NCBI GenBank assembly: GCA_001777995.1
Contig: MFFV01000027.1
Coordinates: 26,419 to 59,935, forward strand
Origin: Candidatus Falkowbacteria bacterium RIFCSPLOWO2_02_FULL_45_15
Lineage (GTDB): Bacteria; Patescibacteriota; Patescibacteriia; Patescibacteriales; XYC2-FULL-47-12
DNA length: 33,517 nt
Reading direction: 5' to 3'
Numbering within the stretch: the first letter of the stretch is position 1; each line of letters begins with the position of its first letter. The position numbers and the translations under genes are program-made. Under the pieces are notes generated by a model. That model was given only the letters and a program-made list of their open reading frames with translations. It searched no databases and was not told the DNA's origin. This document shows, in pieces, positions 4,797 through 31,436 of the stretch.

Positions 4797-4825
4797 AGGG
4801 TGCGGGCGGCATAAAAACAATCATT

Positions 4826-5725
4826 ATGCGAGTAGTTATCACCGGAGCACAAGGGTTTATCGGCACTAATTTGGTCACTCGGCTGGCAAAAAAAAATTTT
4901 GACATTATCGCCGTGGACAAAAATCAGCCTCCAGACAAACCTCTAGGGGGCGTTATGTATCATCAAACCGACCTCTCTCATCCGGCCGATCTCATGCCTG
5001 ATCATGAAGAAGGGCGACAGTTTATACTTATTCATTTGGCGTGGAACACGCAAAGAAATGCTTTGTTCCAGCCCCAGTCAGAGCAGATTAGCTATCTAGC
5101 CGGAATATTAGATTATTGGAAAGATAAAGGGCTTACTTACTTAATAGTCACCGGATCGGCTGAAGAATATGGCCAACGGGCAGGTACTTTAAAAGAAGAT
5201 GATGGGCCGAGCGGGGAGCTTTCTCCTTACGGCTGGAGCAAACATGCCGCATATCTTCTCACTAAAACATGGGCGCAACAAAATAATATCCCCGTTACCT
5301 GGTTTCGCCCGTTTACTGTTTATGGCGCCGCCGGTCAAACCGGCCAGATGCTTATCCCCTACGCGCTTAACAAAGCGCTCGCCAAAGAACCGGCGCAATT
5401 TACTGACGGGCGGCAAAAACGTGATTTTATACATATAGATGATGTTATATCCGCGATCATACTTGCTCTGCATAAAAGTCCGAAGAAATTTAATACTATT
5501 AATCTTGGCAGCGGGCAACCAACCCAAGTGAAAGACATTATAGAATCTATCGCCGTACATTTTCAAGTTCAATCTTTATTTGAACTGGGGGCTATCGCCC
5601 AAAAACCAAATGCCCCACCTATACAAATAGCTGATATTAATAAAGCTATTCAGATACTCAATTGGCAACCAACTATCTCTATCAAAAAGGGGCTATCCTT
5701 GCTGTATAAAGAATATATTAAGTAG
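4826..5725 (+). CDS. NAD(P)-dependent extended-SDR nucleotide-sugar reductase/epimerase (size and motifs like CDP-abequose/paratose synthase or 4-ketoreductase)
   Basis: 299-aa ORF with Rossmann motif VVITGAQGFIGTNL, catalytic YxxxK (SPYGWSKHAAYLL) and RDFIHIDDV. It immediately follows the CDP-glucose dehydratase fusion. Substrate and stereochemistry cannot be read from sequence. Confidence 0.8.
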   Translation: MRVVITGAQGFIGTNLVTRLAKKNFDIIAVDKNQPPDKPLGGVMYHQTDLSHPADLMPDHEEGRQFILIHLAWNTQRNALFQPQSEQISYLAGILDYWKDKGLTYLIVTGSAEEYGQRAGTLKEDDGPSGELSPYGWSKHAAYLLTKTWAQQNNIPVTWFRPFTVYGAAGQTGQMLIPYALNKALAKEPAQFTDGRQKRDFIHIDDVISAIILALHKSPKKFNTINLGSGQPTQVKDIIESIAVHFQVQSLFELGAIAQKPNAPPIQIADINKAIQILNWQPTISIKKGLSLLYKEYIK

Positions 5726-5731
5726 CTTAAA

Positions 5732-7021
5732 ATGGAAAACGTTATTATTTTAGGAGCAGGTCTTTCCGGATTGGGCTGTGCCGGCTCCCTGCCGCAAGCG
5801 CGCATCTTTGAAGCCTTACCGCACCCCGGCGGGCACGCTTATTCACACCCGGTTGGAGGCGTTTTTTTTGACGAAGGCGCTCATATTTCACATTCCAAAG
5901 ATAAAGACTTTGTTGATTTAATTTGCAATCGAGCAAAAAAGGTAGAGGAAATCAGGTCAAGCCGGGTTGCTAATTATCGGGACACAAGATGGATGACGTA
6001 TCCAATACAAAATAATATAAACGAGCTTCCTCTTAAGGACAGAATATTCGCTTTAACAAGTTTCTTGGCAGCTCGCATAAAAAATAAAAAAGAAATTAAT
6101 AACTATTCAGACTGGTGCCAAAATCAATATGGCAATTATTTAACTAAAAATTTTTATACTAAATTTACTAAAAAATACTGGCGCGTTGAAATGGAGCAAC
6201 TAGCCACCGATTGGCTGTCCGGACGGCTAATCCCATCACAGATCTCTAATATTATACTAGGCGCCTTTAAATCAAGGCCGGAAAAACAAGCTGTCTTCAC
6301 GACCTTCCGTTATCCTGCCCAGGGTGGGTTTTTTAATTTTTTTAAATTACTCTATGACACGCACCTCGTCCAATACAACCAACGCGCTAGAGAAATTGAT
6401 TTGGAAAAAAAGTGTGTCAACTTTGAATCCGGCCGGAGCGAATCTTTTGAAGTTATCGCCAGCTCCATCCCGCTACCGAAGCTTGTCGCAATGATTAAAC
6501 AAACCCCTTCGCAAGTACGCGAAGCGGCTAAACTACTGCGCCACACCCAGCTTTTATGTGTAAACATACTAATCAATAAGCCCAAAGTAACTCCCTACCA
6601 TTGGTTTTACATTTATGATCAAGCTATCCGCGCAGCCCGGGTATCTGTTCCCAGCAATCTTGCTCCCCATTCAGTGCCGCCAAACATAACCGCTATCCAA
6701 GCTGAGATCTTTTACAGGTATAATGAGATAATAGATAGCGAGGCCGTGTGCAATCAAACCGTAAAAGATATGGCAAAAATATTAAAATTTGACAGTAAAG
6801 CTGATGTTATATCTGCCACTTCAGTTCATGTTCCCTATGCGTACGTAATTTCCGACCACAACCGAAAAAAGGCGGTGGAACATATTACTGCTTGGTTAAA
6901 AAATAACAATATCTATACAATGGGATTGTATGGTAATTGGAAATATATGTGGTCCGACGCTGCCTTCCGTTCTGGTGAACAAACGGCCGACATGATAAAA
7001 AATTACTTAAAAAAATCTTGA
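5732..7021 (+). CDS. FAD-dependent flavoprotein, UDP-galactopyranose-mutase / amine-oxidase-like
   Basis: 429-aa ORF with N-terminal dinucleotide fold VIILGAGLSGLGCA. HPGGHAYSH..GGVFFDEGAHISHSK resembles the UGM pattern (R.HIGGN.Y....G...H.YGPHIFHT). The C-terminal MGLYGNWKYMWSDAAFRSG resembles the UGM GR.G.Y.Y.NMD motif. Assignment rests on motif resemblance only. Confidence 0.55.
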   Translation: MENVIILGAGLSGLGCAGSLPQARIFEALPHPGGHAYSHPVGGVFFDEGAHISHSKDKDFVDLICNRAKKVEEIRSSRVANYRDTRWMTYPIQNNINELPLKDRIFALTSFLAARIKNKKEINNYSDWCQNQYGNYLTKNFYTKFTKKYWRVEMEQLATDWLSGRLIPSQISNIILGAFKSRPEKQAVFTTFRYPAQGGFFNFFKLLYDTHLVQYNQRAREIDLEKKCVNFESGRSESFEVIASSIPLPKLVAMIKQTPSQVREAAKLLRHTQLLCVNILINKPKVTPYHWFYIYDQAIRAARVSVPSNLAPHSVPPNITAIQAEIFYRYNEIIDSEAVCNQTVKDMAKILKFDSKADVISATSVHVPYAYVISDHNRKKAVEHITAWLKNNNIYTMGLYGNWKYMWSDAAFRSGEQTADMIKNYLKKS

Positions 7022-7023
7022 TT

Positions 7024-7752
7024 ATGGAAACCGAACAAATGCCTCCTGAAATAAGTCTTGTCCTGCCGGCGTATAATGAAGGAGAAAATATCGCCATTGT
7101 ATTAAAAAATTCGGCTCGTTATTTGAATGCAACGAATCGCCCGTGGGAAATAATAGTCATTGACAATTGTTCCAACGACAACACTGTGTCGGTAGTACGC
7201 GCCTTCATTGCCAAAGAAGCAAGAATAAGAATAATCCAACACACCAGTAATTTTCTGTATTCCGGCTCCTGCAGAACAGGCATCCAGAATGCTAAAGGTA
7301 AATACGTAGCCATTATGGATTCAGATGGCCAAGCTACAGCTGAAGATCTGCCCCAATTTATTGATAAGCTCGAAAAAGAAGGAATGAACCTTGTCTTTGG
7401 GTGGCGCTACGCGCGCCACGATTCCAAAATTAGGCTGTTCATATCTTTCGTATTTAATATGCTGGGCAAACTATGGATCCGATTCCCATTCCATGACCTC
7501 AACGCTGGTTTTCGCATGTTTGACAGGAAATTTATGGCTGTCGCTACCATTAACTACCGGATAAACATGGTCAACCCGGAGCTGTATGCCCGCGCCAAGA
7601 AGGCTCATCTTAAGATAACCGAGATAAAAGTACAACATTTTGAAAGAAATAATGGCAAAACCAGCCACAATTTCATTAAAATATGGAACATTTTTATAGA
7701 AATAAATAAATATCTCTTTAATCTGCATAAAGAACTTAAAAAGCCAGATTAA
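7024..7752 (+). CDS. GT2 glycosyltransferase, Dpm1-like (polyprenyl-phosphate sugar synthase type, no C-terminal membrane anchor)
   Basis: ISLVLPAYNEGENI, VIDNCSNDNT and MDSDGQATAEDL (DxD) are GT2 / dolichyl-phosphate-mannose-synthase-like motifs. The ORF track starts at TTG 7018, overlapping the upstream TGA; ATG 7024 (METEQM) is preferred here. Confidence 0.85.
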   Translation: METEQMPPEISLVLPAYNEGENIAIVLKNSARYLNATNRPWEIIVIDNCSNDNTVSVVRAFIAKEARIRIIQHTSNFLYSGSCRTGIQNAKGKYVAIMDSDGQATAEDLPQFIDKLEKEGMNLVFGWRYARHDSKIRLFISFVFNMLGKLWIRFPFHDLNAGFRMFDRKFMAVATINYRINMVNPELYARAKKAHLKITEIKVQHFERNNGKTSHNFIKIWNIFIEINKYLFNLHKELKKPD

Positions 7753-7771
7753 TACACTATTTTTAAGCAAC

Positions 7772-9646
7772 ATGACAAGAAAAATTTTTTGGAGCGCTGT
7801 TATAGGCGCATTGGCAGTTTCTTTTATTTATGGCCTGCCATATTTGCTGATTAAAAAAGAATTGGCGACACAAAATATTTCGTATCATCCTATTTCCGTT
7901 TTTGCCGACTGGGACGAGGCTTTAGTCTATGTGCCGCTCACGGCAACGGCCTCCCGTATGTGGCGACAAACTGACCCGGCGCTATTGGAACATCAGTCTA
8001 CGCCGCTGATGCTCCCCCCGGCCAACCCGATTATTTTTGGCGCTTTAACGCGCATAATAGGCATTGAATCTCTCTGGATTGGCGTTGATTTTATTCTGCC
8101 TCCCCTTATATTTTTACTCTTTTTGGCCATCATGTACCGTATCAGCGCCAATATCTGGCTGTCATTTCTATTAAGCGTTATTTTTATATTTACCCGCAAT
8201 CTCGCGGCTTTAATCCCTTTCTCTACCCTAGAACAGCTGCGGCAATTTTTGATTTTTTTTAAACCTTTTCTTTCCCGTCCCGTTAATTCGTTTTTGCCTT
8301 TTGACCGCATGTTTTCGCCGGAATGGACATTTATTCCTTTAGCCGTCTTTTTCCTCTTGTTAGTTACGGCGCTAATAAAAAATAAAAAAATATTTTATAT
8401 AACAGCCGGTTTAGCCTATGGCTTTTTATTTTATACTTACTTCTACGATTGGGTGATAACAACTATTGTCTTAGCTGTGATGTTAATAATCGCCGTTTTA
8501 AGGCGCGATAAAGAATTGGCAAAAAAAATTCTGCTCACCGGCATCATCGGGCTGGCGGTATCAGTATTTTATTGGCTGAATTTTTGGCGCGTGCTGCAGC
8601 TGCCGCAATACCCAGATATCAGCCTGCGCGCCAGTCTTGAAGTCGGACGAGTATTCCGCTGGTCACATTGGCCTCATTATCTCTTCTGGGCGCTATGGGC
8701 GGGTTGGATATTATTTAAACGTTACCGCGACCCACTGCTTTATCTGGCGGCAGCGATTTTTATCGCCTCTATTGTTTCGCTTAATACACAGCTTGTAGTC
8801 GGCTATGTCCCCCAACCTTACCATTTTTTAGAATTTAGCCTCGCTATCCCCCTTTTTATCGCTTATTATATCTGCGGTCTAAAATTATGGGAAGAATATA
8901 GAGAGCGTTTTAAAAAATATGGCAAATGCCTCGTGGCCATGGCTGGCATTGGGGCACTGCTGGTATCAACGCGAGCGGTGCAATCCCAAATAAGTTATGC
9001 TCAAAATAACGAATGGCGCTATATAAACGCTAAAACAATTGATGAGTCGTTTAATTGGCTGCGAACTAATTTATCGGCAACTGACGTCGTCTTAAGCCCG
9101 TCTTTTATCACTAACTCCTACCTAATGACCGCCACGCCGGTCAAAGTTTTTTATCCTCCGACCGGCTTGGTAACTTCAGCCCCTAACCGCGAAATTGTTG
9201 AACGCTATTTGATTGCGGCTAAACTATTCGGCGCAACCGACAGCCGCTTACAGGAGCTGTTCAACCCTAATTACATCAGCGCCATCTTAGCGCAATCAAC
9301 CGGCGAGCCTGAAAACGAACAAGCTACCTTAGAGAACTTAGTTGCCAAAGCGCTATTGCATGGTGGCTTTAATGTCCAAAATCCGAGCCTCATATATAAT
9401 AATGCTACTGCTTATCGTCAACTTGAAGTGGTAGAGAAAACATTGGATAATTTTACCAAAAGCTGGGATAGTGATAAAGCTAGCTGGCTAAAAAAATACT
9501 CCTGGCAATATGTTTACTTTGGCCCCTATGAAAAAAAATTTTTTTCTTTTACAGCCAAAAACTTTCCCGGCTGTCTAAAAACCGTATACCAAAACGAGGA
9601 CGTGACTATTTATAAAATTTGTTCCGATACAGTAAACGAATCTTAA
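7772..9646 (+). CDS. Large polytopic membrane protein with C-terminal non-membrane domain; GT-C-like architecture, unassigned family
   Basis: 624-aa ORF with many hydrophobic helices in residues about 1-400. An acidic/aromatic first loop (FADWDEALVY) follows helix 1, and a polar domain of about 200 aa ends in DVTIYKI. It starts 19 bp after a Dpm1-like GT2. Architecture matches the 9658-11562 and 14602-16407 products. No canonical PMT_2 motif recognised. Confidence 0.6.
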   Translation: MTRKIFWSAVIGALAVSFIYGLPYLLIKKELATQNISYHPISVFADWDEALVYVPLTATASRMWRQTDPALLEHQSTPLMLPPANPIIFGALTRIIGIESLWIGVDFILPPLIFLLFLAIMYRISANIWLSFLLSVIFIFTRNLAALIPFSTLEQLRQFLIFFKPFLSRPVNSFLPFDRMFSPEWTFIPLAVFFLLLVTALIKNKKIFYITAGLAYGFLFYTYFYDWVITTIVLAVMLIIAVLRRDKELAKKILLTGIIGLAVSVFYWLNFWRVLQLPQYPDISLRASLEVGRVFRWSHWPHYLFWALWAGWILFKRYRDPLLYLAAAIFIASIVSLNTQLVVGYVPQPYHFLEFSLAIPLFIAYYICGLKLWEEYRERFKKYGKCLVAMAGIGALLVSTRAVQSQISYAQNNEWRYINAKTIDESFNWLRTNLSATDVVLSPSFITNSYLMTATPVKVFYPPTGLVTSAPNREIVERYLIAAKLFGATDSRLQELFNPNYISAILAQSTGEPENEQATLENLVAKALLHGGFNVQNPSLIYNNATAYRQLEVVEKTLDNFTKSWDSDKASWLKKYSWQYVYFGPYEKKFFSFTAKNFPGCLKTVYQNEDVTIYKICSDTVNES

Positions 9647-9657
9647 AATAACTCTGA

Positions 9658-11562
9658 CTAAAATTGATAAACGTAAACGTCGTTAAATTTATTGATAAAT
9701 TCAATTTGCGGCAATTGCGCCGCTACCTGCTCGCGCAATGGACCGACGGAAACGATATAATCAAGACGATAGGCGCGCAACGCATCCGCAAAATCCCGCC
9801 GCATAAAATTCCGATAGTCATCGGGCAAGCGCTGTAAGCTCTCCGCCAGCGTTGTAGTGGAAAAATCAGGAAACTGCGGCGCGCCATGAACATCTTTCCA
9901 ATTAGTAAAAAGATTGCTAACCACCTCCGGCTGATTATCAGCTAAATATGCCTCAATGGTATCCGATGTTACCCCTTTCATTCGCAATAAAATCAGGTAG
10001 CTGTGGTAGCGGCGGGCGGGGTCTAAGAGATTGTAAGCCCAAGTTGAGCTGTAAACATTGCAGTGCGTAAAGGCAGGCACCAGACCAACTAAATTATACA
10101 TATCGTTGGAATCATCAATCACCAGCACCACGCAGTCCTTTTCCCGCTCGTTCAGCCAAGCAAAAACCGCTCCGTACTCCTGCAGGCCGGCATAATAATT
10201 AAAATGAACGCGGTAAGCGTTTGCCTGCGTAAATACTCCCCAGGCGAGTGAAGATGCGGCTGCAAGCGCTATTACTGCAAACCACAATTTAGGCATGACC
10301 TTGCCCACTACAACATACCCCGAAACAAAAGTAACGATAATTGCAATCGGAATGGTATACTGAACGAAATGAAACGGCCAAACGGCCCGGCCAGTAATGA
10401 CTTGCTGGTTTAATGCCCATAGACCGCCCAAAATTAAAGCTAAACAAAAGAGATGCCAATCTTGCAGGCGCGTTTTGTACGCTAAATTAACAACTCGCTC
10501 TCGCCATAACGGCCAAGAGTTTCTCTGCCAAAATAAAAATAAGAGCAGCGCTCCATAAAAAAACAAAGCCGCCAATAAAACCTTGTTAAGCAAAGGGTAG
10601 TGAGTGTAAAGCAACCCGTTGCGCAGCATCGCGTCTTCATACCACTGGTTATCGCGCAACCGCAGCATAATATACCAATAGGGCGCCGTCAGCAGCGTAG
10701 CCGATACGCCTATAGCCAATAAACGCTTAACGGGCACATATTTTTTTTCTATAACATATACAATAAATAGTATCCCCATAACTGACACCGCCAACCCCCA
10801 GCTGAAAAAATAATTGCCTACCATCAGCGCCAACAGCACGCCGGCAACGCCAACGAATGTTTTGGCATGTTGATGATTTTGCATGATGCGCCAAAGACAC
10901 AGTAAAAAAGCAAAGAACAAAACGCCGCCGATAATTGGGTTAACCGGACGCGACCATACCAAAAACGAACTGCTATGTATTTGACCGGTTAAAAACAGCC
11001 AAACGGTCCGATAGTCTATCAAATCGTAGCCCAAGGTAACTAACAACGCGCCGGCAACGGCATTTAATCTCTTTGACACCTCACTATCATAGATAGTTAA
11101 GTTATATATTAAAAAATAAATTAGCACAAACAACGCCGCCGGCAAGACGAACCGGTTAACGGTGACGACTGTAATTAAGGGCAGGCGCAAAGCCATACTG
11201 GGCAGAGCATAAAACATCTCGCCCAAAGACGGCGTTAAAGGCCACTGGTCCTTGCCTTCATAAAAAGCGAATGAACCTAAACTGGGATGCCCGTCCATAA
11301 TCTCCTGCATTCTGGCGATATAAAAATCTTCATTGGCTGTCTCCATCATGGGGATACCCTGATATTTATCGCCTAAAGACCATACAAAAAAAATATGAGG
11401 CGCCAGATAAATGAGCCCCACGATTAAAGCGCCGGCTAATGCTAATTTGTGCTTGGCAACCACTGTTTGTAGATAACCAAAAAATGTTTTTATGCTATCC
11501 ATATAATCATCCCCAATAAAAATTGCAATATTTTTTTGTCTTAGGCGCTTTATCTTTTTCAT
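9658..11562 (-). CDS. Large polytopic membrane protein with C-terminal non-membrane domain; GT-C-like architecture, paralog of the 14602-16407 product
   Basis: 634-aa ORF. First-loop motif EDFYIARMQEIMDGHPSLG (about nt 11275-11331) and mid-protein GLLYTHYP are shared with the 14602-16407 protein. About 12 hydrophobic segments, and a polar C-terminal domain ending DVYVYQF. An alternative start at Met21 (MDSIKTF) is possible. Confidence 0.6.
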   Translation of the reverse strand: MKKIKRLRQKNIAIFIGDDYMDSIKTFFGYLQTVVAKHKLALAGALIVGLIYLAPHIFFVWSLGDKYQGIPMMETANEDFYIARMQEIMDGHPSLGSFAFYEGKDQWPLTPSLGEMFYALPSMALRLPLITVVTVNRFVLPAALFVLIYFLIYNLTIYDSEVSKRLNAVAGALLVTLGYDLIDYRTVWLFLTGQIHSSSFLVWSRPVNPIIGGVLFFAFLLCLWRIMQNHQHAKTFVGVAGVLLALMVGNYFFSWGLAVSVMGILFIVYVIEKKYVPVKRLLAIGVSATLLTAPYWYIMLRLRDNQWYEDAMLRNGLLYTHYPLLNKVLLAALFFYGALLLFLFWQRNSWPLWRERVVNLAYKTRLQDWHLFCLALILGGLWALNQQVITGRAVWPFHFVQYTIPIAIIVTFVSGYVVVGKVMPKLWFAVIALAAASSLAWGVFTQANAYRVHFNYYAGLQEYGAVFAWLNEREKDCVVLVIDDSNDMYNLVGLVPAFTHCNVYSSTWAYNLLDPARRYHSYLILLRMKGVTSDTIEAYLADNQPEVVSNLFTNWKDVHGAPQFPDFSTTTLAESLQRLPDDYRNFMRRDFADALRAYRLDYIVSVGPLREQVAAQLPQIEFINKFNDVYVYQF

Positions 11563-11646
11563 CTATTGGATATAACAGACAGTAAAATGGTAAATTATTC
11601 CATCTTAAACAATCATTCCCCGAAAGGCATCTTTTAGTAAATAGCC

Positions 11647-11689
11647 AAAAACATGGGGAGTCGTTGCAACAACCGTGATGCCCGCATGT
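11647..11689 (-). terminator. Putative intrinsic terminator-like hairpin downstream of the 11761-12846 gene
   Basis: On the minus strand, ACAUG-C-GGG (11689-11681) pairs with CCC-CAUGU (about 11658-11651), giving 8 bp with one bulge. The loop of about 22 nt contains a GUUG/CAAC mini-stem. UUUU (11650-11647) follows directly. It lies about 70 nt after the upstream stop, inside the largest intergenic gap (198 bp). The long loop makes it non-canonical. Confidence 0.35.
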
Positions 11690-11760
11690 CCCTTTTCTTA
11701 ATAAAATCTGCTTAATAACATACTAATGTCTCATAAAACTTCTTAAATGTTCCATAAAAT

Positions 11761-12846
11761 TTAAATAAACCTATTAATAATAGCTGAAATTTTTTTAACT
11801 TCAGCGTCGGTTAAAAACGGATATAACGGTAAAGAAAGCAGTTCCTTGGCATACTTCTCTGCCCGCGGAAAAAAACCATGCGCATACCGCTTGAAAGCCG
11901 CCTGTTTATTTAACGGCTTAGGATAATGGACTAAAGTCTCTACCCCGTTTTTTTGTAAAAATTTCCTTAGCTTGTCCCGCTGTTTTGAACGAATCACGAA
12001 TAAATGGTAAACATGTCTGCTATTGCTTGCCGTTGATGGCAAAGTAATATTGAGATTATTGATTGATTTTCTGTATAATTCAGCGATTTGCTGGCGCCGC
12101 TTATTCCAACGGTCAAGATATTTTAATTTTACTCGCAAGATGGTTGCCTGCAATTCGTCCAAACGGCTGTTAATGCCGAATCTTACGCTCTCCGTTCTAT
12201 TTTTCTGACCGTAAAAACGAAGTTGCAATAACTTTTTATAATAATTTTGATTATTAGTAACAATTGCCCCCCCATCGCCGTAAGCCCCTATATTTTTTGT
12301 CGGATAAAAACTAAAACAGCCAAAGTCTCCCCATGCCCCCACTATTTTTTCCTCCCAATAAGCGCCGTTAGCCTGAGCGCAATCCTCAATTAATAAAAGA
12401 TGGCGCTTTTTAGCTAAGGCGCGTAAGGCACGCAGGTTGCATGCTTGGCCGTATAAATGAACCGCAATAATCGCTTTAGTCTTTTTTGTTATCACTTTTG
12501 GTATCTGCTCTATATCAATTAAAAAAGAATTGTCGCAATCAACCAAGACTGGAATAGCGCCGCTCATTAAAACCGCTATGGCGGTGGGGATAGCGGTATT
12601 CACCGGCACAATGACTTCATCTCCTTGACCAACACCGGCGCTTAATAAACTTAAATACAAAGCATCGGTACCGGAATTTACGCCTACGCAATATTTTGCC
12701 CCACAATAGCGGCTGAATTCATCTTCAAATTTTTTTACTTCTGGACCTAAAACATACCAACCGCCTTTAAACATCATGGTCAATGCCCGACTTATTTCTT
12801 TGCGCAAATAGCTATATTCGCGGACGAAATCGATAAATTTAATCAT
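11761..12846 (-). CDS. DegT-family nucleotide-sugar aminotransferase (FdtB/QdtB/TylB-like by context)
   Basis: 361-aa ORF with GVNSGTDALYLSL, GDEVIVPVNTAIPTA, LIEDCAQA and PLP-lysine motif CFSFYPTKNIGAYGDGG. Its start overlaps the stop of the upstream ketoisomerase gene by 8 nt (ATGATTAA). Confidence 0.9.
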   Translation of the reverse strand: MIKFIDFVREYSYLRKEISRALTMMFKGGWYVLGPEVKKFEDEFSRYCGAKYCVGVNSGTDALYLSLLSAGVGQGDEVIVPVNTAIPTAIAVLMSGAIPVLVDCDNSFLIDIEQIPKVITKKTKAIIAVHLYGQACNLRALRALAKKRHLLLIEDCAQANGAYWEEKIVGAWGDFGCFSFYPTKNIGAYGDGGAIVTNNQNYYKKLLQLRFYGQKNRTESVRFGINSRLDELQATILRVKLKYLDRWNKRRQQIAELYRKSINNLNITLPSTASNSRHVYHLFVIRSKQRDKLRKFLQKNGVETLVHYPKPLNKQAAFKRYAHGFFPRAEKYAKELLSLPLYPFLTDAEVKKISAIINRFI

Positions 12847-13267
12847 TTTTTATATATTTTAGAAAATGCTGATAATCACGGATATAATCGCTTTCCCGAT
12901 AATAATCACTGGCAACTACCAAAATGACGCAATCCGATGAAAATTTTTTCATCACCCGCCAAACTGCCGCTCTTAAATAAACACCGGTGTAGGGGTCATT
13001 CATTAAAATTTTTTGTTTTGTCTGCCCATCGTCCAAGTGCAGTTCAAACGAACCGTTGATGCACAAAATTATCTGCTGTAATTTCTTATGGGCGTGCAAA
13101 CCGCGAATGGCTTTTTTATTGAATAAACTATTAATAAAATAAAAACGCTTAATGGGAAACGGCACGCTCTTTTTTTCTTCGCCGATCACTAAATTACCGT
13201 CGGGAAAGTCATTAAAAAATTGCAGCTTGATGATGCTGGCATTTTTTACTTTTATTTTTTTAACCAT
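12839..13267 (-). CDS. FdtA/QdtA/WxcM-type NDP-4-keto-6-deoxyhexose 3,4-ketoisomerase (cupin)
   Basis: 142-aa ORF. FPIKRFYFI...IRGLHAHKKLQQIILCINGSFELHLDDG...GVYLRAAVW matches the FdtA/WxcM cupin pattern, with the His pair in RG.HAHK. Size is typical for this family. Confidence 0.8.
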   Translation of the reverse strand: MVKKIKVKNASIIKLQFFNDFPDGNLVIGEEKKSVPFPIKRFYFINSLFNKKAIRGLHAHKKLQQIILCINGSFELHLDDGQTKQKILMNDPYTGVYLRAAVWRVMKKFSSDCVILVVASDYYRESDYIRDYQHFLKYIKND

Positions 13268-13276
13268 ATGTTTACA

Positions 13277-13864
13277 TTAAGCCAAAATAAAAACTTGGTA
13301 ATCACAAACGCCTGTCCGCAAGGGATATTCCTTTTGCACTAAAAATTGTTCCGCTAGCAAATTACGATATCCCTGCGGCGTACGAATGTGTTCCCCCGCG
13401 TCTAAACTCCGAACAAACCGAGAGATGATTTGTTGGGCTGGTATATCTTCCATTACTACTGCTTTTCCTCCCGGTTTTAATAGCCGCTTCATCTCGGCTA
13501 CTACCAAACTAACAGCAGTATCATTAAGATGATGGAGAACACCATTAACCCAAATAGCGTCAAAAGATTGGGCCGGAAATTGTATTTTGCCTGCATCCAT
13601 CACCTGAAATTGTTTACTAGGATAACGCCAGCGAGCATAGTTAATATAAGGTTGGGAAATATCAATCCCTACATAGCCTGGCCCAAACCAAGGAGAAAAT
13701 ACGCCGGTACCGCACCCTAAATCCAATACTATTTGCGATTGACGCTCCGGCAATTCTTGGGAGATTACTTCCTTCTCGCCCTGATGATTATTTTCTAATA
13801 TCCGGCGGACAAAATCTAAAATTACCGGCCGTTGCACTACCCAATCAATAATTTTATTAACCAT
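13277..13864 (-). CDS. Class I SAM-dependent methyltransferase (Methyltransf_11/25-like)
   Basis: 195-aa ORF with SAM motif I VLDLGCGTGVF, acidic loop GIDIS, post-II FDAIWVNGVLHHL and LKPGGKAVVME. It lies directly upstream of the ketoisomerase/aminotransferase pair. Confidence 0.8.
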   Translation of the reverse strand: MVNKIIDWVVQRPVILDFVRRILENNHQGEKEVISQELPERQSQIVLDLGCGTGVFSPWFGPGYVGIDISQPYINYARWRYPSKQFQVMDAGKIQFPAQSFDAIWVNGVLHHLNDTAVSLVVAEMKRLLKPGGKAVVMEDIPAQQIISRFVRSLDAGEHIRTPQGYRNLLAEQFLVQKEYPLRTGVCDYQVFILA

Positions 13865-13869
13865 AAATA

Positions 13870-14589
13870 TTATTTCGCTTTACCTAATAACACCAGCTCC
13901 CACCATAATTTAAATAAAGTCATTAGTGTCCGACTCACTCGCCGTACCGTAAAAAACTGCGACTGACCATAAGTGCGAGAATAATGATGCACCGGTACTT
14001 CGCGGATAACAACACCGGCATTCTGCAAACGCCGTGACAACTCAACACACATACTACCATCATCACTTTTGAGCGTTATTTGGTCTAGTTTTTCTTTTTT
14101 AAACAAACGATAATCACAGTCTACATCTCTAATTTTAAGCAAAAAAACAACTTTCATTGCCCATTGATAAATCTTACCGATAATAATTCTATCAAAAGTA
14201 TCCTGGCGCTTAATTTTATAACCGTTTACCAAATCAACTTCTGGCTCGGCGGCTTGAGCTAATAAAACTAATTCTTTAACATCGTATTGCGCGTCCCCGT
14301 CGGTGTAAAAAATCCATTCCTTGGTAGCTTGAGCAAAACCACTCTTGAGCGCTGCGCCATACCCTTGGTTATGTTCATGGAAGACGACTTTAAGACGAGG
14401 GTTGGTCTCTTGCAATGACGCTAATAGTTCCCGAGCGCCATCGATTGAGCCGTCATCAGTTACAATAATTTCGTAATCATTAATGTTTAAGTTATGGACA
14501 GTTTCCGTGGCGTCATCTATAAGTTTCTTTATTGTACCTTTATCATTATAGCAAGGGAAAAAAATGGATATAGAATTTATGTTAGACAT
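13870..14589 (-). CDS. GT2 glycosyltransferase, Dpm1-like (polyprenyl-phosphate sugar synthase type)
   Basis: 239-aa ORF with ISIFFPCYNDKGTI, VTDDGSIDGA and YTDGDAQYDV (DxD). It starts 12 bp downstream of the stop of the large membrane protein gene (14602-16407). Confidence 0.85.
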   Translation of the reverse strand: MSNINSISIFFPCYNDKGTIKKLIDDATETVHNLNINDYEIIVTDDGSIDGARELLASLQETNPRLKVVFHEHNQGYGAALKSGFAQATKEWIFYTDGDAQYDVKELVLLAQAAEPEVDLVNGYKIKRQDTFDRIIIGKIYQWAMKVVFLLKIRDVDCDYRLFKKEKLDQITLKSDDGSMCVELSRRLQNAGVVIREVPVHHYSRTYGQSQFFTVRRVSRTLMTLFKLWWELVLLGKAK

Positions 14590-14601
14590 AAATCTAACTA
14601 T

Positions 14602-16407
14602 TTATCCGTTAGTTAATTTATAAATGGTAAATCTTGAATCTTGATACCCAATATCAGCCTGAATACCGATGATAATAATATTAGTCTGCAACGCTGGATA
14701 GTATAAATTATCAACTAAAACATAGGAAACATGGTATTGCCGCAATTTCTCGCTGATGTTAGGCTTAATTTCCTGCGTGTACTGTTGATATAAATTACTG
14801 AAAAAATTCTCTCCACGGAAAGTAACAGCATTAGCGACAAGCTCCCCACAATTGTAACCTAATTTATCCAAAAATAGCAAGCGGCAAACGCGCACGCGGC
14901 GGTTATAAACTTTATATTGATGGACAGCGTTAGCTACTCCGGCATATGACCAAAAATCAGCTTCAATGTCTGCTTGAGTTAGGTCGTCAAAATAATGAGA
15001 TGTCAAATAACGTTGCACCTGCTCCGTATCTGGAAATAAGTAGTCCGACCCAGAAGGCGCGAAAAGTACATAGTGCTTTGTCAATATGGGAATGTAATTA
15101 TTAATATCGTCAGTGCCCAGCGTCCAAATAACAACCGATTCGTTTCTCTGTTCTTCCAGCCAATTTAACGGCGCTGCGTAAAATTGCCTCTCTACCACAG
15201 TTTGCCGATTTTCTCGCACCATAGTCACCAGACTGAATCCTTCGCGGGCATATAACAAAACCCCTGCTGAAACTATCAATAATAATGCGCTTAATGTTAT
15301 TTTTTTTCCTAAGCCGTTTGTTTTTATTTGCTGTCGATATTTAAGAGCGTACGCCACCAAAATAGTAAAAACTGCTGCCAGCCACACTACCATAAACCGC
15401 TCAATATGCTGGGAATTTTCCGACTCTTTACCGCTTAAAATGTTACTGCCAGAGGTAATGAGCATGGCGACGCCGCTTAAAGCATAAAGTGGCAATGTCT
15501 TTTTGTATGTTTCGTCCTGCCTGATAATTTCCACCCAACGCCATAAGAAAAACCATAGACCTAGCGCCGCCGCCACCCAAAAGCCGGAAGTAAAAAAATT
15601 AGTGGCTGGCAGGTGGGTATAAACAAGACCGACACGCCTCATTGATTCCCAAAAATATGGCGATTGTATCTGCTGCCAAGTATATGCCAGAAAAGGAATG
15701 GAGGCAATGAATGCTAAAGCGCAAGCCGCTGCTAAATACGTTGCCTCCCGACGACGATGTTTGACGGATAAATATACAATCATCAGCGGCATAAAAACCG
15801 CTATAATCTGCGTCAAGTAGGTATATACGTACACGGACAGTGTGGCGGATATAGCTACCAGCCACACTGCCTTTTTGCTGGTGGGGTATTTTTGCCAGAT
15901 AATTATCGCCAGCAAAAAAATCAAAAATACTGGCAGAACTGTCTGCAAGGAAACCGCTCTGGCTAAAATGGAAAAGGAGGTGACATAGCCCAATAAGGCG
16001 CCAATCAAACACAATTTTTCTGGCACGGCGCAGCATCGCAGCACAAAATAAAAAATAGCCGTGAACAACCATGACCAAAAGAACAGATTAAATATTACCG
16101 TGCTGCTGATAGAAAAACCTAAAAATAAAGGCCAAGCCGCCAGCCAGTCGGCGACGAAAAAAGATAGTGCTAACTCGCCATTATGTTCAAGATAAAACGG
16201 ATTGCCAACAAATGGGTGACCATCAAATATTTCTTTCAGGCGGGCATAATAAAAATAGCTATCGCCGGTGAACTGCAGAGGCACCCCCTCCCAATTATGA
16301 CCGACGACTGAAAAAATTAAACCCAAGGCTGTGGCCGTCAGAATGGTAATAACCGCCAAAAGGGCAATCAGATAGCGGTACTTTTGAAACTGTGCGCGCA
16401 ATTGCAT
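14602..16407 (-). CDS. Large polytopic membrane protein with C-terminal non-membrane domain; GT-C-like architecture, paralog of the 9658-11562 product
   Basis: 601-aa ORF. First-loop motif DSYFYYARLKEIFDGHPFVG (about nt 16204-16263) and GLVYTHLP are shared with the 9658-11562 protein. Multiple hydrophobic helices, and a polar C-terminal domain ending RFTIYKL. Flanked on both sides by Dpm1-like GT2 genes. Confidence 0.6.
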   Translation of the reverse strand: MQLRAQFQKYRYLIALLAVITILTATALGLIFSVVGHNWEGVPLQFTGDSYFYYARLKEIFDGHPFVGNPFYLEHNGELALSFFVADWLAAWPLFLGFSISSTVIFNLFFWSWLFTAIFYFVLRCCAVPEKLCLIGALLGYVTSFSILARAVSLQTVLPVFLIFLLAIIIWQKYPTSKKAVWLVAISATLSVYVYTYLTQIIAVFMPLMIVYLSVKHRRREATYLAAACALAFIASIPFLAYTWQQIQSPYFWESMRRVGLVYTHLPATNFFTSGFWVAAALGLWFFLWRWVEIIRQDETYKKTLPLYALSGVAMLITSGSNILSGKESENSQHIERFMVVWLAAVFTILVAYALKYRQQIKTNGLGKKITLSALLLIVSAGVLLYAREGFSLVTMVRENRQTVVERQFYAAPLNWLEEQRNESVVIWTLGTDDINNYIPILTKHYVLFAPSGSDYLFPDTEQVQRYLTSHYFDDLTQADIEADFWSYAGVANAVHQYKVYNRRVRVCRLLFLDKLGYNCGELVANAVTFRGENFFSNLYQQYTQEIKPNISEKLRQYHVSYVLVDNLYYPALQTNIIIIGIQADIGYQDSRFTIYKLTNG

Positions 16408-16429
16408 ATTAGTGTTATTTACGATGAGA

Positions 16430-17134
16430 TTAGACTTTTTTTCTTCGTATATGCCAAGGCGCCAATAATCCTTCCTTAATAATGTGGCGGGATATTTTTG
16501 ATTTTCCCTCCGTACGGTTCTTAAAAAGAATGGGCACTTCGGTGATGCGCGCGCCGGATTTCCACAGGAGGTATTTTAGCTCAATTAAAAATGCGTACCC
16601 TGACATATCAAGATCGTCTAAATTTATTTTTCTAAAGGCGACTGCTCGCATCGCATTAAAACCGCTTGTGCAATCGCGTACCGGCAAACCGATAACCCAT
16701 CGCGCGTACCGGTTGCCGTACCGGCTCAAAAAACGCCGCCATGTTTCCCAGCCTTCGATACTGCCATCCAGTGCGTATCGGGAGCCGACGGCCACATCAA
16801 AATATTTCAATGTTTCCAATAATTTTGGTATATACTTCGGGCTATGTGAAAAATCAGCGTCCATCATAATTATATGTTCCACCTCGGAATCGCGCAGCAC
16901 GTTCTCAAATGCCTGTACGTATGCTTTGCGCAAGCCCTCTTTTTTTTCCCTCAACAAAAGCGTTAAACCAGGAAACCGACGGCTAAGCTCGCGCACTGCT
17001 TCGTAAGTTTTGTCAGGCGAATTATCGTCCACGACCATAATATGTATGTCTGGAGCGGTAGAAAAAATTTCTTCAATCAGGGGGACAATATTCTTTCTTT
17101 CATTGTAGGTTGGAATAATAACTACATTCTTCAT
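16430..17134 (-). CDS. GT2 polyprenyl-phosphate mannose/hexose synthase (Dpm1/Ppm1-like)
   Basis: 234-aa ORF with VVIIPTYNERKNIVPLIEEI, VVDDNSPDKT, MDADFSHSPKYIP and SGFNAMR, a close match to the DPM1/Ppm1 catalytic domain pattern. Its ATG directly abuts the TAA of the upstream GT4 gene (no spacer). Confidence 0.9.
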   Translation of the reverse strand: MKNVVIIPTYNERKNIVPLIEEIFSTAPDIHIMVVDDNSPDKTYEAVRELSRRFPGLTLLLREKKEGLRKAYVQAFENVLRDSEVEHIIMMDADFSHSPKYIPKLLETLKYFDVAVGSRYALDGSIEGWETWRRFLSRYGNRYARWVIGLPVRDCTSGFNAMRAVAFRKINLDDLDMSGYAFLIELKYLLWKSGARITEVPILFKNRTEGKSKISRHIIKEGLLAPWHIRRKKV

Positions 17135-18972: not shown

Positions 18973-18973
18973 A

Positions 18974-24577: not shown

Positions 24578-24597
24578 AGCTAAATATTGTCATTCTG

Positions 24598-24627
24598 GTT
24601 AGACTGGGTTTTAAAACCCAGTCTAAC
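24598..24627. repeat. 30-bp perfect palindrome (potential 13-bp stem / UUAA loop hairpin or dimeric protein binding site)
   Basis: GTTAGACTGGGTTTT|AAAACCCAGTCTAAC read directly from the sequence. It lies in the 84-bp gap between two minus-strand methyltransferase genes, 20 nt upstream of the ATG at 24577. No T-run follows on either strand. Confidence 0.9.
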
Positions 24628-24661
24628 TCAAGTCTATACAAGTAGCTCTACCTATTGCTGG

Positions 24662-25489: not shown

Positions 25490-25492
25490 AAG

Positions 25493-26071: not shown

Positions 26072-26078
26072 ATTATTT

Positions 26079-27965: not shown

Positions 27966-27974
27966 ATTAATCTC

Positions 27975-29660: not shown

Positions 29661-29664
29661 TATT

Positions 29665-31423: not shown

Positions 31424-31436
31424 ACCATTGACGATT

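What the first reader, a model, noticed from the sequence alone, without database searches (positions are those of the whole stretch)
7024..17134. Repeated GT2 plus large membrane protein modules, including an unassigned family of about 600-aa polytopic proteins
The 33.5 kb window holds five GT2 enzymes of the polyprenyl-phosphate-sugar synthase type (7024-7752, 13870-14589, 16430-17134, 29665-30660, 31437-32423). It also holds five polytopic membrane proteins of 560-634 aa, each with a large polar C-terminal domain (7772-9646, 9658-11562, 14602-16407, 22161-23912, 27975-29660). Three times a GT2 is immediately adjacent to a large membrane protein: 7752/7772, 14589/14602 (with a second GT2 at 16430), and 29660/29665. 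Two of the membrane proteins carry recognisable ArnT/PMT_2 GT-C motifs. The other three do not, but they look related to one another. The 9658-11562 and 14602-16407 products share a first-loop motif (EDFYIARMQEIMDGHPSLG vs DSYFYYARLKEIFDGHPFVG) and a mid-protein motif (GLLYTHYP vs GLVYTHLP). The 7772-9646 product has RVFRWSHWP at a comparable position. Four of the five end with a similar strand-like tail (DVYVYQF, RFTIYKL, DVTIYKI, FVEIYKV). In known systems (GtrB/GtrC-type, ArnC/ArnT, GacI/GacL, CsbB/YfhO, Ppm1/PMT) such a pair performs one extracytoplasmic monosaccharide decoration. Five pairs in one locus would imply a combinatorial surface-decoration system. The three unassigned proteins could be a divergent or new GT-C-like transferase family.
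Basis: partly seen in the sequence, partly recalled or inferred. Interest (0 to 1): 0.8.

Follow-up and report, generated by a model that had tools for sequence, protein, structure and literature searches.

The report
New GT-C glycosyltransferase family in Patescibacteria
Three unannotated 600-residue membrane proteins in this Candidatus Falkowbacteria sugar-biosynthesis island belong to a large, previously unnamed family with the fold of lipid-sugar-dependent (GT-C) glycosyltransferases, and each travels with its own lipid-sugar synthase, so they most likely decorate the cell surface from the outside.

Summary
The window comes from Candidatus Falkowbacteria (Patescibacteria). It carries five GT2 enzymes and five polytopic proteins of about 600 aa at the stated coordinates.

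Three of the membrane proteins have no Pfam, NCBIfam or PDB sequence match: A 7772-9646(+), B 9658-11562(-) and C 14602-16407(-). They are full-length paralogues (hhalign E 6e-44 and 3e-25).

AlphaFold models of B (pLDDT 90.6) and A (95.4) match only GT-C glycosyltransferases in the PDB: AftA, STT3/PglB, DPY19 and ArnT. The conserved acidic first-loop motif and the C-terminal domain are predicted to lie outside the cell.

The superfamily has at least 1300 clusters at 50% identity. Every named member is from Patescibacteria.

Some members are fused to a GT2 domain or to a GtrA flippase domain. Specific GT2 orthologues sit upstream of specific family members in other genomes.

Best reading: these are lipid-phosphate-sugar-dependent extracytoplasmic glycosyltransferases, a new sequence family of a known kind. 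The acceptor, the sugar and the flippase remain unknown.

The parts
7018..7752 (+). Short GT2 (244 aa, no C-terminal TM helices), polyprenyl-phosphate-sugar synthase type. Proposed donor-maker for family member A.
   Evidence: PF00535 E 1e-31. Best PDB matches are ArnC (7e-17) and GtrB (6e-14) over residues 11-229. A GT2 also lies next to the A homologue in L055.
7772..9646 (+). Family member A: 624-aa membrane protein with 11 predicted TM helices, GT-C fold and an extracytoplasmic C-terminal alpha/beta domain.
   Evidence: No Pfam or NCBIfam hit. AF2 pLDDT 95.4, pTM 0.94. Foldseek top 21 hits are all GT-C enzymes; AftA 8if8 has E 2.9e-6 and TM 0.49. hhalign to family B gives E 2.8e-25.
7907..7993 (+). 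A, first extracytoplasmic loop motif DWDEALVY...TDPALLEH. D48/E49 is the candidate catalytic acid; E73 is conserved across the superfamily.
   Evidence: D48 is >=90% conserved in A4. Columns; coordinates.
9658..11562 (-). Family member B: 634-aa GT-C-fold membrane protein. The true start is probably M21, at 11502.
   Evidence: More than 265 homologues at 42-60% identity across Parcubacteria lineages, all 'hypothetical' and without Pfam. AF2 pLDDT 90.6, pTM 0.91. Foldseek top 23 hits are all GT-C enzymes; AftA has E 2e-7 and TM 0.50. Topology.
11254..11334 (-). B, first-loop motif NEDFYIARMQEIMDGHP...FYEG. Conserved residues: E78/D79, Y81, R84, D90, G91, E102.
   Evidence: Invariant and near-invariant columns of A1. 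The motif sits at the N-terminus of loop helix 78-89 in the model. The loop is predicted to be outside. Coordinates.
10594..10623 (-). B, RNGLLYTHYP motif in the long extracytoplasmic loop between TM7 and TM8. Equivalent to C 15607-15636 and A 8627-8674.
   Evidence: R314, G316, T320, H321 and P323 are conserved. The Arg is conserved across the superfamily. Coordinates.
10366..10410 (-). B, NQQVITGRAVWPFHF motif in the short outer loop before TM10. Equivalent to A 8783-8827 and C 15403-15450.
   Evidence: Q387 and G391 are conserved across the superfamily. Coordinates.
11761..13864 (-). Tailoring cassette between GT2 13870 and B: SAM methyltransferase (13277-13864), FdtA-type 3,4-ketoisomerase (12839-13267) and DegT aminotransferase (11761-12846).
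   Evidence: Pfam. The same GT2-MT-FdtA-DegT-B order occurs in L001/L008, L013 and L018.
13870..14589 (-). Short GT2 (239 aa), ArnC-like. It is the conserved upstream partner of B.
   Evidence: PF00535 E 1e-25. ArnC E 1.4e-18 over residues 4-219. Orthologues scoring 220-420 bits lie upstream of B homologues in 8 loci.
14602..16407 (-). Family member C: 601-aa paralogue. The GT-C fold is assigned by full-length homology to B.
   Evidence: hhalign B-C 100% probability, E 6e-44. 21 homologues. No Pfam hit across 17 members.
16183..16266 (-). C, first-loop motif GDSYFYYARLKEIFDGHP...FYLEH. Conserved residues: D49, Y53, R56, G63, E74.
16430..17134 (-). Short GT2 (234 aa), resembling dolichol/polyprenol-phosphate mannose synthase. 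It is the conserved immediate upstream partner of C.
   Evidence: Pyrococcus DPMS 5mlz E 2e-34 over residues 1-223. Orthologues lie directly upstream of C homologues in L004, L006, L007 and L050.
22161..23912 (-). PMT_2-type GT-C protein (583 aa), unrelated in sequence to A, B and C. It ends a GT2-AsnB-MT-MT-MT cassette.
   Evidence: PF13231 E 1.2e-8, above the gathering score. No relation to family B. In other genomes the same cassette ends with a B homologue.
23846..27965 (-). Tailoring cassette: AsnB-type glutamine amidotransferase (26079-27965) and three SAM methyltransferases.
   Evidence: Pfam, NCBIfam. The cassette recurs upstream of B homologues in L009, L020, L041-L043 and L046.
27975..29717 (-). 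Fifth large membrane protein. It gives a marginal GT22 (Alg9-like, GT-C) signal.
   Evidence: PF03901 E 3.5e-5, 23.6 bits against a cut-off of 23.8. No relation to family B. No PDB sequence hit.
29665..32423 (-). Two long GT2 enzymes with C-terminal TM helices, of ArnC/PgfS/GtrB type (29665-30660 and 31437-32423), flanking a YdjC-family deacetylase (30653-31486).
   Evidence: Pfam. NCBIfam ArnC and PgfS models give E 6e-50 to 4e-82, below the equivalog cut-offs.
2931..7021 (+). Precursor supply and possible A-module tailoring: fused glucose-1-P cytidylyltransferase / CDP-glucose 4,6-dehydratase (2931-4796), an epimerase (4826-5725) and an FAD amine-oxidase-like protein (5732-7021).
   Evidence: TIGR02623 (421 bits) and TIGR02622 (488 bits) are both above their cut-offs. 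The Amino_oxidase + epimerase + GT2 trio also flanks the A homologue in L055.

Best explanation
A, B and C are three paralogous members of a large sequence family of GT-C-fold (GT-C_A class) integral-membrane glycosyltransferases. The family is not annotated in Pfam or NCBIfam. As far as sampled, it is confined to Patescibacteria.

**Proposed mechanism**
1. The island's enzymes build CDP- or dTDP-type 6-deoxy, amino, C-methyl or O-methyl hexoses in the cytoplasm.
2. A dedicated short GT2 transfers one such sugar onto polyprenyl phosphate.
3. The lipid-linked monosaccharide is flipped to the outer face. No flippase is identified in the window. In some relatives a GtrA domain is fused to the GT-C.
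4. On the outer face the GT-C protein binds the donor. The conserved acid at the tip of the first loop helix (A D48/E49, B E78/D79, C D49) activates the acceptor. This acid is paired with a conserved Arg on the same helix, as AftA D128 is paired with R132.
5. The sugar is transferred to an acceptor that is held with help from the C-terminal alpha/beta domain.

**Shown here**
- Fold, predicted topology and motif conservation.
- GT2 type.
- Orthologue-specific GT2 to GT-C synteny, and domain fusions.

**Inferred**
- Catalysis, donor identity and flipping.
- The acceptor, which could be a polysaccharide, an S-layer protein or pilin, or a lipid.

**Module assignments**
- GT2 7018 -> A
- GT2 16430 -> C
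- GT2 13870 -> MT / FdtA / DegT -> B

With two further modules built on the long GT2s, the PMT_2 protein and the GT22-like protein, the island holds five lipid-sugar synthases and five GT-C-type transferases.
For: **Fold**
- The AF2 models of B (pLDDT 90.6, pTM 0.91) and A (95.4, 0.94) were searched separately; their input alignments are both drawn from the one superfamily.
- Foldseek hits at probability 1.0 are exclusively GT-C enzymes: AftA, STT3, PglB, AglB, DPY19, ArnT, ALG12, ALG3, AftD and Pmt4.

**Homology.** C is tied to B over its full length (E 6e-44).

**Architecture.** It matches the GT-C hallmarks listed in PMC10265970:
- an 11-TM core;
- a first long outer loop of two helices carrying a conserved acid plus Arg;
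- a long helix-containing loop between distal TMs;
- a C-terminal alpha/beta domain with five strands (DSSP).

**Topology.** Short predicted inner loops are rich in K/R. Short predicted outer loops have almost none.

**Conservation.** It concentrates in the outer loops.

**GT2 partners.** They resemble ArnC, GtrB and DPMS over the whole catalytic domain.

**Fusions.** Nine of the 150 listed superfamily representatives (all those >=714 aa) carry an N-terminal extension.
- Four carry GT2, two carry GtrA, two carry a methyltransferase and one carries GT4.
- The fusions recur on 8 to more than 24 contigs.
- One GtrA::GT-C gene is followed by an overlapping short GT2.

**Synteny**
- 27 of 37 loci have a GT2 upstream against 6 of 37 downstream.
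- The GT2 to GT-C pairs are orthologue-specific.
- In other genomes a B homologue occupies the cassette slot that the PMT_2 protein holds in this window.

**Against an LLO pathway.** No initiating phosphoglycosyltransferase or Wzx/Wzy gene is present in the window.
Against: - There is no biochemical evidence of any kind.
- Whole-chain TM-scores to solved GT-C enzymes are only about 0.4-0.5.
- The first-loop acid is not in a single strictly invariant column. It is 70% conserved in family C, and the alignment register shifts by one residue between families.
- No GtrA-like or other flippase gene was found in the window.
- A GT2 is directly adjacent to a B homologue in only 2 of 39 loci, and about a quarter of loci have none within 5 kb.
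- The sampled loci are phylogenetically related, so the synteny statistics overstate independence.
- OST structures score nearly as well as AftA in Foldseek, so fold alone does not fix the donor class.
Confidence: 0.72

Rival explanations
1. A, B and C are oligosaccharyltransferase-like enzymes (functional analogues of PglB, AglB or STT3). They would move a pre-assembled glycan en bloc from a polyprenyl-diphosphate carrier onto surface proteins. The GT4 enzymes of the island would build the glycan.
For: STT3, PglB and AglB structures rank just behind AftA in both Foldseek searches. The island holds two GT4 glycosyltransferases. The proteins have a sizeable extracytoplasmic C-terminal domain, as OSTs do.
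Against: There is no STT3 Pfam match. No WWDYG-like motif occurs in any of 143 members. The window and the inspected related loci contain no initiating phosphoglycosyltransferase and no intact Wzx flippase; only a 125-aa Polysacc_synt_C fragment appears in L055. The fusions are to GT2 (lipid-monophosphate-sugar synthase type) and GtrA, which are the partners of monosaccharide systems. The GT2 pairing is orthologue-specific.
Confidence: 0.12
2. They are GT-C-fold proteins with another role: a glycan polymerase or ligase (Wzy/WaaL-like), a lipid-linked-sugar scaffold or flippase, or catalytically dead paralogues.
For: Function is untested. Three paralogues in one locus could include non-catalytic copies. 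The first-loop acid is less conserved in family C.
Against: Foldseek did not retrieve WaaL, RodA/FtsW or any GT-C_B structure among the 50 best matches listed for each model. Polar residues in the outer loops are strongly conserved in each family. Each paralogue keeps its own conserved GT2 partner.
Confidence: 0.08
3. They are ordinary, highly diverged members of an existing GT-C family (PMT_2/ArnT-like GT39/GT83, or AftA GT85) rather than a separate family.
For: 4 of 63 members of the A-centred alignment give weak PMT_2 hits (best E 8.5e-4). AftA is the top structural match for both models.
Against: None of the 143 scanned members reaches a Pfam gathering score. A family-B profile finds nothing among PDB sequences, including AftA, ArnT and the Pmts. 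hhalign against the window's own PMT_2 protein gives 2% probability.
Confidence: 0.08

Closest known systems
AftA, the priming arabinofuranosyltransferase of Mycobacterium tuberculosis (CAZy GT85; PDB 8if8; PMC10265970)
   Same: It is the best structural match for both models (E 2e-7 and 3e-6, TM about 0.5). Both have an 11-TM GT-C core. Both carry an acid plus Arg on the first long outer-loop helix (AftA D128/R132; here E78-D79/R84 in B). Both have a C-terminal extracytoplasmic alpha/beta domain with five strands. AftA uses a lipid-monophosphate monosaccharide donor.
   Different: There is no detectable sequence similarity. AftA has two extra N-terminal TM helices and forms a dimer. Its donor, decaprenyl-P-arabinofuranose, is made from PRPP and not by a GT2. 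The taxa differ (Actinobacteria versus Patescibacteria).
Three-component extracytoplasmic glycosylation systems: GtrA/GtrB/Gtr*, CsbB/GtcA/YfhO, ArnC/ArnE-F/ArnT, and the GT136 system (PMC11127046)
   Same: Both encode a GT2 polyprenyl-phosphate-sugar synthase together with a GT-C transferase. GtrA domains are fused to members of this family elsewhere. Sugar-tailoring enzymes lie between the synthase and the transferase, as in the arn operon (the arn comparison is from my own knowledge).
   Different: The GT-C component is a different sequence family. The window encodes no small flippase gene. The GT2 partners of A, B and C lack the C-terminal TM helices of GtrB and ArnC. Up to five modules are packed into one 33-kb island.
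PMT_2 / ArnT-type GT-C proteins (Pfam PF13231; CAZy GT39/GT83)
   Same: The fold class is the same (GT-C_A). ArnT 5f15 is a significant Foldseek hit. A PMT_2 protein fills the same cassette position in this window that a B homologue fills in other genomes.
   Different: There is no Pfam match above threshold in any member scanned. Profile comparison with the window's own PMT_2 protein is null.
Oligosaccharyltransferases STT3 / PglB / AglB (CAZy GT66)
   Same: The GT-C_A fold is shared, with strong Foldseek hits. Both have a large extracytoplasmic C-terminal domain.
   Different: There is no WWDYG motif and no STT3 Pfam hit. The genomic partners point to monophosphate-linked monosaccharide donors.

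Membership tests
GT-C fold glycosyltransferases (GT-C_A structural class) | Polytopic membrane core whose helix arrangement matches solved GT-C enzymes | tested here: met
   High-confidence AF2 models of B and A. The top 21-23 Foldseek PDB hits are all GT-C enzymes at probability 1.0. Non-GT-C hits have probability <0.15. C is linked by hhalign, E 6e-44.
GT-C fold glycosyltransferases (GT-C_A structural class) | First long extracytoplasmic loop formed by two helices and carrying a conserved catalytic Asp/Glu | tested here: met
   The loop after TM1 has two helices: B 78-89 and 113-125, A 47-63 and 84-96. A conserved acid sits at the start of the first helix (A D48 >=90%; B E78 and D79 90%; C D49 70%) with a conserved Tyr and Arg downstream.
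GT-C fold glycosyltransferases (GT-C_A structural class) | Conserved residues and soluble domain on the extracytoplasmic face, with the N-terminus inside | tested here: met
   Helix parity plus K/R counts over 63 sequences. Mean K+R over mean loop length: inner loops 2.7 of 12.7, 1.9 of 5, 1.8 of 3 and 4.7 of 16; short outer loops 0 of 4 and 0.5 of 11. No dedicated topology predictor was available.
GT-C fold glycosyltransferases (GT-C_A structural class) | Long outer loop between distal TM helices containing a membrane-parallel helix (donor gate) | tested here: inconclusive
   The loop at B 292-326 has helices 293-303 and 308-314. The loop at A 264-296 has helices 265-275 and 280-285. Helix orientation could not be measured without coordinates.
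GT-C fold glycosyltransferases (GT-C_A structural class) | Use of a lipid-phosphate-linked sugar donor, and glycosyl-transfer activity | not testable with these tools
   Evidence is indirect only: GT2 and GtrA fusions and orthologue-specific GT2 synteny.
Three-component Gtr-type glycosylation system | Polyprenyl-phosphate-sugar synthase (GT2) encoded with the GT-C transferase | tested here: met
   GT2 genes flank A and C and head the cassette that ends in B. They match ArnC, GtrB and DPMS. The association is conserved in other genomes.
Three-component Gtr-type glycosylation system | Small GtrA-family (or other) flippase encoded in the locus | tested here: not met
   phmmer with two GtrA domains found no GtrA-like ORF in the window. 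The window is densely packed with assigned genes. GtrA is fused to family members in other genomes.
Pfam PMT_2 / PMT (GT39, GT83) | Match to PF13231 or PF02366 above the gathering score | tested here: not met
   A, B and C give no hit at E<=1. Only 4 of 63 relatives give sub-threshold PMT_2 hits. There are none among 63 B and 17 C relatives. hhalign against the window's PMT_2 protein gives 2% probability.
GT85 (AftA) | Sequence similarity to AftA / AftA_N | tested here: not met
   phmmer and profile searches of all PDB sequences, which include 8if8, return nothing. There is no Pfam AftA hit. The resemblance is structural only.
GT66 oligosaccharyltransferases | STT3 Pfam domain and a WWDYG-type motif in the C-terminal domain | tested here: not met
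   No PF02516 hit. 0 of 143 members carry WW[DE][YWF]G, or any WW[DE], in the C-terminal part.

The most novel reading that the evidence does not exclude
A, B and C would be founding members of one or more new CAZy-level GT-C families that are specific to, and greatly expanded in, Patescibacteria/CPR. The families would be organised as exchangeable cassettes: a lipid-sugar synthase, then tailoring enzymes, then a GT-C. The terminal GT-C could be swapped between unrelated GT-C families. Several cassettes per genome would generate combinatorial, strain-variable surface glycans. In these episymbiotic bacteria such glycans could govern host attachment or phage evasion.
Probability: 0.35. Interest if true: 0.65.

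Novelty: new member of a known kind. Interest (0 to 1): 0.5.

Why it matters
Patescibacteria/CPR make up a large share of bacterial diversity. Most live attached to host cells, yet their surface chemistry is almost unknown.

This work assigns a fold and a testable biochemical role to a family of at least 1300 protein clusters (50% identity) that currently carries only 'hypothetical protein' labels. It supplies three things for experiments:
- candidate catalytic residues;
- matched donor-synthase partners for in vitro reconstitution;
- natural fusion proteins that could simplify expression.

If activity is confirmed, the family would become a new CAZy GT family. That would improve annotation of CPR genomes and show how these small genomes invest in surface glycan diversity. 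The mechanism itself, a lipid-linked sugar plus a GT-C transferase, is well established, so the gain is in breadth rather than in principle.

Tried and rejected
- **Sequence searches of PDB.** Single sequences and a 63-sequence profile of B found nothing useful.
- **Profile comparison with the window's other membrane proteins.** hhalign of family B against the PMT_2 and GT22-like proteins was null. The idea that all five membrane proteins, or four of the five tails, share ancestry at the sequence level is not supported.
- **Pfam over the families.** Scans of 143 family members gave only scattered sub-threshold hits (PMT_2, DUF6798, DUF7654, DUF7657, Dpy19) and no family assignment.
- **Flippase search.** A search of the window and all loci with two GtrA domains found none in the window. 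The 198-bp gap upstream of B has no ORF.
- **Literature.** Searches for Patescibacteria or CPR together with GT-C returned no papers.
- **Taxonomy.** Cluster look-ups for distant members gave few names; all named ones were Patescibacteria.
- **OST reading.** Rejected as the main reading because there is no WWDYG motif and no LLO pathway genes.
- **Transporter, polymerase or ligase readings.** Rejected because no such fold appears among confident Foldseek hits.

Full report
**Source and layout**

The product of 9658-11562(-) is 100% identical to a hypothetical protein of Candidatus Falkowbacteria bacterium RIFCSPLOWO2_02_FULL_45_15. The window is therefore from a Patescibacteria/CPR genome. It is a tightly packed glycan-biosynthesis island. 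It contains:
- a fused glucose-1-P cytidylyltransferase / CDP-glucose 4,6-dehydratase, with both halves above the NCBIfam cut-offs;
- three DegT aminotransferases;
- an FdtA ketoisomerase;
- a C-methyltransferase, a TylF-type O-methyltransferase and several other SAM methyltransferases;
- epimerases;
- an AsnB-type amidotransferase;
- a YdjC deacetylase;
- two GT4 enzymes;
- five GT2 enzymes and five large polytopic membrane proteins.

**Checking the observation**

All five GT2s match PF00535.

The two long GT2s (about 330 aa) align end to end with the ArnC and PgfS models.

The three short GT2s (234-244 aa) best match solved polyprenyl-phosphate glycosyltransferases across the whole catalytic domain:

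| GT2 | Best solved match | E-value |
|---|---|---|
| 7018-7752 | ArnC | 7e-17 |
| 7018-7752 | GtrB | 6e-14 |
| 13870-14589 | ArnC | 1.4e-18 |
| 16430-17134 | Pyrococcus Dol-P-Man synthase | 2e-34 |

Of the membrane proteins, 22161-23912 is a clear PMT_2 protein. 27975-29717 misses the Glyco_transf_22 gathering score by 0.2 bits.

The other three are A (7772-9646), B (9658-11562) and C (14602-16407). They have no Pfam or NCBIfam hit at E<=1 and no hit among PDB sequences.

**Are A, B and C related?**

Yes, over their full length.
- Pairwise BLAST gives B-C 1e-11, A-B 1e-9 and A-C 1e-3.
- Family alignments were built: 63 sequences for B, 17 for C and 3 for A.
- hhalign gives 100% probability (E 6e-44, 567 columns) for B versus C, and 99.7% (E 2.8e-25, 550 columns) for B versus A.
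- The two recognisable GT-C proteins of the window show no relation to this superfamily (probability 2% and 1%). The tail resemblance of 27975-29717 is therefore unsupported.

**Fold**

| Model | Alignment used | pLDDT | pTM |
|---|---|---|---|
| B | 63 sequences | 90.6 | 0.91 |
| A | 63-sequence superfamily alignment | 95.4 | 0.94 |

Foldseek against the PDB gave only GT-C glycosyltransferases as confident hits for both models:
- AftA 8if8 ranked first (E 2e-7 and 3e-6, TM about 0.5).
- STT3, PglB, AglB, DPY19, ArnT, ALG12, ALG3, AftD, Pmt4 and GPI-mannosyltransferase I followed.
- Transporters and other membrane proteins appear only at probability <0.15.

DSSP of the models shows:
- eleven TM helices;
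- a first loop with two helices;
- a long helix-bearing loop between TM7 and TM8;
- a C-terminal alpha/beta domain with five strands.

These correspond to the GT-C hallmarks summarised in the AftA structure paper (PMC10265970).

**Topology and conserved residues**

I took helix boundaries from the B model and counted K+R over the 63-sequence alignment.
- Predicted inner loops are basic: 2.7 K+R in a mean 12.7 residues, 1.9 in 5, 1.8 in 3 and 4.7 in 16.
- Short predicted outer loops are not: 0 in 4 and 0.5 in 11.

This puts the N-terminus inside. All conserved loops and the C-terminal domain fall outside.

A merged 143-sequence alignment shows these superfamily-wide conserved residues:

| Feature | A | B | C |
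|---|---|---|---|
| Acid at the start of the first loop helix | D48/E49 | E78/D79 | D49 |
| Tyr and Arg on the same helix | Y (R replaced by Leu in the window's A; Arg in about half of A-type sequences) | Y81, R84 | Y53, R56 |
| Near-invariant Glu | E73 | E102 | E74 |
| Arg preceding GLxYTHxP | R286 | R314 | R258 |
| N/Q-x3-G motif before TM10 | Q340, G344 | Q387, G391 | N322, G326 |

An 'E..DG' element is present in B and C. The acid-plus-Arg arrangement parallels AftA D128/R132. The acid column is less conserved in family C (70%), and the alignment register shifts by one residue between families.

**Size and spread of the family**
- B alone has more than 265 homologues at 42-60% identity in Falkow-, Komeili-, Niyogi-, Portnoy-, Lloyd- and Taylorbacteria. 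All are 'hypothetical' and none has a Pfam domain.
- An exhaustive HMM search with the A profile found 1300 cluster representatives (50% identity) at E<=1e-3, and 261 at E<=1e-30.
- Every member that carries a name, and all 47 genome loci retrieved, come from Patescibacteria-type MAGs.
- Pfam scans of 143 members gave no consistent family. Four members gave sub-threshold PMT_2 hits.
- No paper in the held library links Patescibacteria or CPR with GT-C enzymes.

**Functional links**

*Fusions.* Nine of the 150 listed representatives (all those >=714 aa) have N-terminal extensions:
- four carry GT2;
- two carry a GtrA/DPMS flippase domain;
- two carry a SAM methyltransferase;
- one carries GT4.

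The fusions recur on many contigs. P0181 (UniRef A0A1G2DGL1, Lloydbacteria) is on more than 24 contigs, P0216 on 8 and P0232 on 14. The GtrA::GT-C gene P0232 is followed by an overlapping short GT2. All three components of a Gtr-type system are thus encoded in two genes.

*Synteny.* Among family-B loci with at least 5 kb on both sides, a GT2 lies within 5 kb upstream in 27 of 37. It lies within 5 kb downstream in 6 of 37 (Fisher 1.5e-6). The loci are not independent, so this value is indicative only.

The pairing is orthologue-specific:
- 13870-type GT2s (220-420 bits) head cassettes that end in B homologues in eight loci.
- 16430-type GT2s sit directly upstream of C homologues in four loci.
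- The A homologue in L055 is flanked by a GT2, an amine-oxidase-like flavoprotein and an epimerase, as in the window.

*Cassette swap.* The cassette 'long GT2 - AsnB - MT - MT(-MT)' ends in a B homologue in at least seven genomes. In this window it ends in the PMT_2 protein. The two GT-C types therefore occupy the same slot.

- Direct GT2/GT-C adjacency is uncommon for family B (2 of 39 loci). Tailoring genes normally lie in between.
- GT2 13870-14589 is next to C, but its conserved partner is B. The conserved partner of C is GT2 16430-17134.
- No flippase gene is present in the window.

**Mechanism and rivals**

The best-supported reading is a set of lipid-phosphate-monosaccharide-dependent extracytoplasmic glycosyltransferases. 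Each is fed by its own GT2 synthase, in the manner of Gtr, Arn, CsbB-YfhO and GT136 systems (PMC11127046).

The CAZy survey of GT-C families lists GT-C_A families as inverting enzymes that mostly use lipid-P-monosaccharide donors (PMC10920833).

Rivals:
- An OST-like en bloc transferase is the main rival. It lacks the WWDYG motif (0 of 143 members), an STT3 domain and any lipid-linked-oligosaccharide initiation or flipping genes.
- Polymerase, ligase or non-catalytic roles find no support in the fold matches.
- The proteins could be very diverged PMT_2 or AftA relatives. That does not change the mechanism and fails the sequence tests run here.

**Verdict**

It is a new sequence family of a well-known kind of enzyme, embedded in an unusually dense island with five synthases and five transferases.

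It is useful for annotation and for opening CPR surface glycobiology to experiment. It is not mechanistically surprising.

The sugar identities, acceptor, flippase and catalytic activity all remain untested.

Noticed in passing
window 27975-32423 (-): A long GT2 (31437-32423), a YdjC-family deacetylase (30653-31486), a second long GT2 (29665-30660) and a GT22-like membrane protein (27975-29717) lie in a row. From my own knowledge this resembles the Francisella FlmF2/NaxD/FlmK route, in which a lipid-linked N-acetyl-hexosamine is deacetylated before a GT-C enzyme transfers it.
   Followed up: partly
window 22161-30660 (-) compared with L009, L020, L041-L043, L046: The cassette 'long GT2 - AsnB amidotransferase - two or three methyltransferases' ends in a family-B protein in other genomes. 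In this window it ends in a PMT_2 protein. Unrelated GT-C families therefore seem to be swapped at the same cassette position.
   Followed up: partly
window 2931-4796 (+): A single 621-aa protein fuses glucose-1-phosphate cytidylyltransferase and CDP-glucose 4,6-dehydratase. Both halves are above the NCBIfam equivalog cut-offs. This points to CDP-activated 6-deoxyhexoses as precursors for the island.
   Followed up: partly
window 5732-7021 (+) and L055 10644-11924: An FAD/NAD-binding amine-oxidase-like protein has only weak N-terminal similarity to UDP-galactopyranose mutase (E 4e-7, far below the cut-off). It travels with the GT2 and the family-A protein in both genomes. Its role is unknown.
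   Followed up: partly
L053 1520-2500 and L054 232-1592: A reverse transcriptase (RVT_1) lies 2-3 kb upstream of the GtrA::GT-C fusion gene. In L054 it is accompanied by a bAvd accessory protein, the signature of a diversity-generating retroelement.
   Followed up: no
window 18247-19122 (-): A 291-aa ORF with no Pfam or NCBIfam hit overlaps the TylF-type methyltransferase ORF by about 150 nt, so its true start is probably further downstream. Homologues appear in the related islands L006 and L018.
   Followed up: no
window 11502-11562 (-): Homologues of B align only from about residue 14-37 onward. The annotated N-terminal 20 residues (MKKIKRLRQKNIAIFIGDDY) are probably not translated, and the start is likely M21.
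   Followed up: partly
L007, L015, L036, L038, L040, L047 and the 'Saccharibacteria' loci: Several MAG records holding family-B loci are titled 'uncultured Gammaproteobacteria' or 'Candidatus Saccharibacteria'. Their gene content is nonetheless the same as in the Parcubacteria-type islands. The titles look like automated mislabels.
   Followed up: no
L055 6192-7994; L056 10875-12695: Further 600-aa proteins without Pfam domains sit beside family members. They are probably additional paralogues, so tandem expansion of the family may be common.
   Followed up: no
window 34-405 (+): The first ORF is the C-terminal fragment of a formyltransferase cut by the window edge. The island therefore extends beyond the window, possibly towards N-formylated amino sugars.
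   Followed up: no
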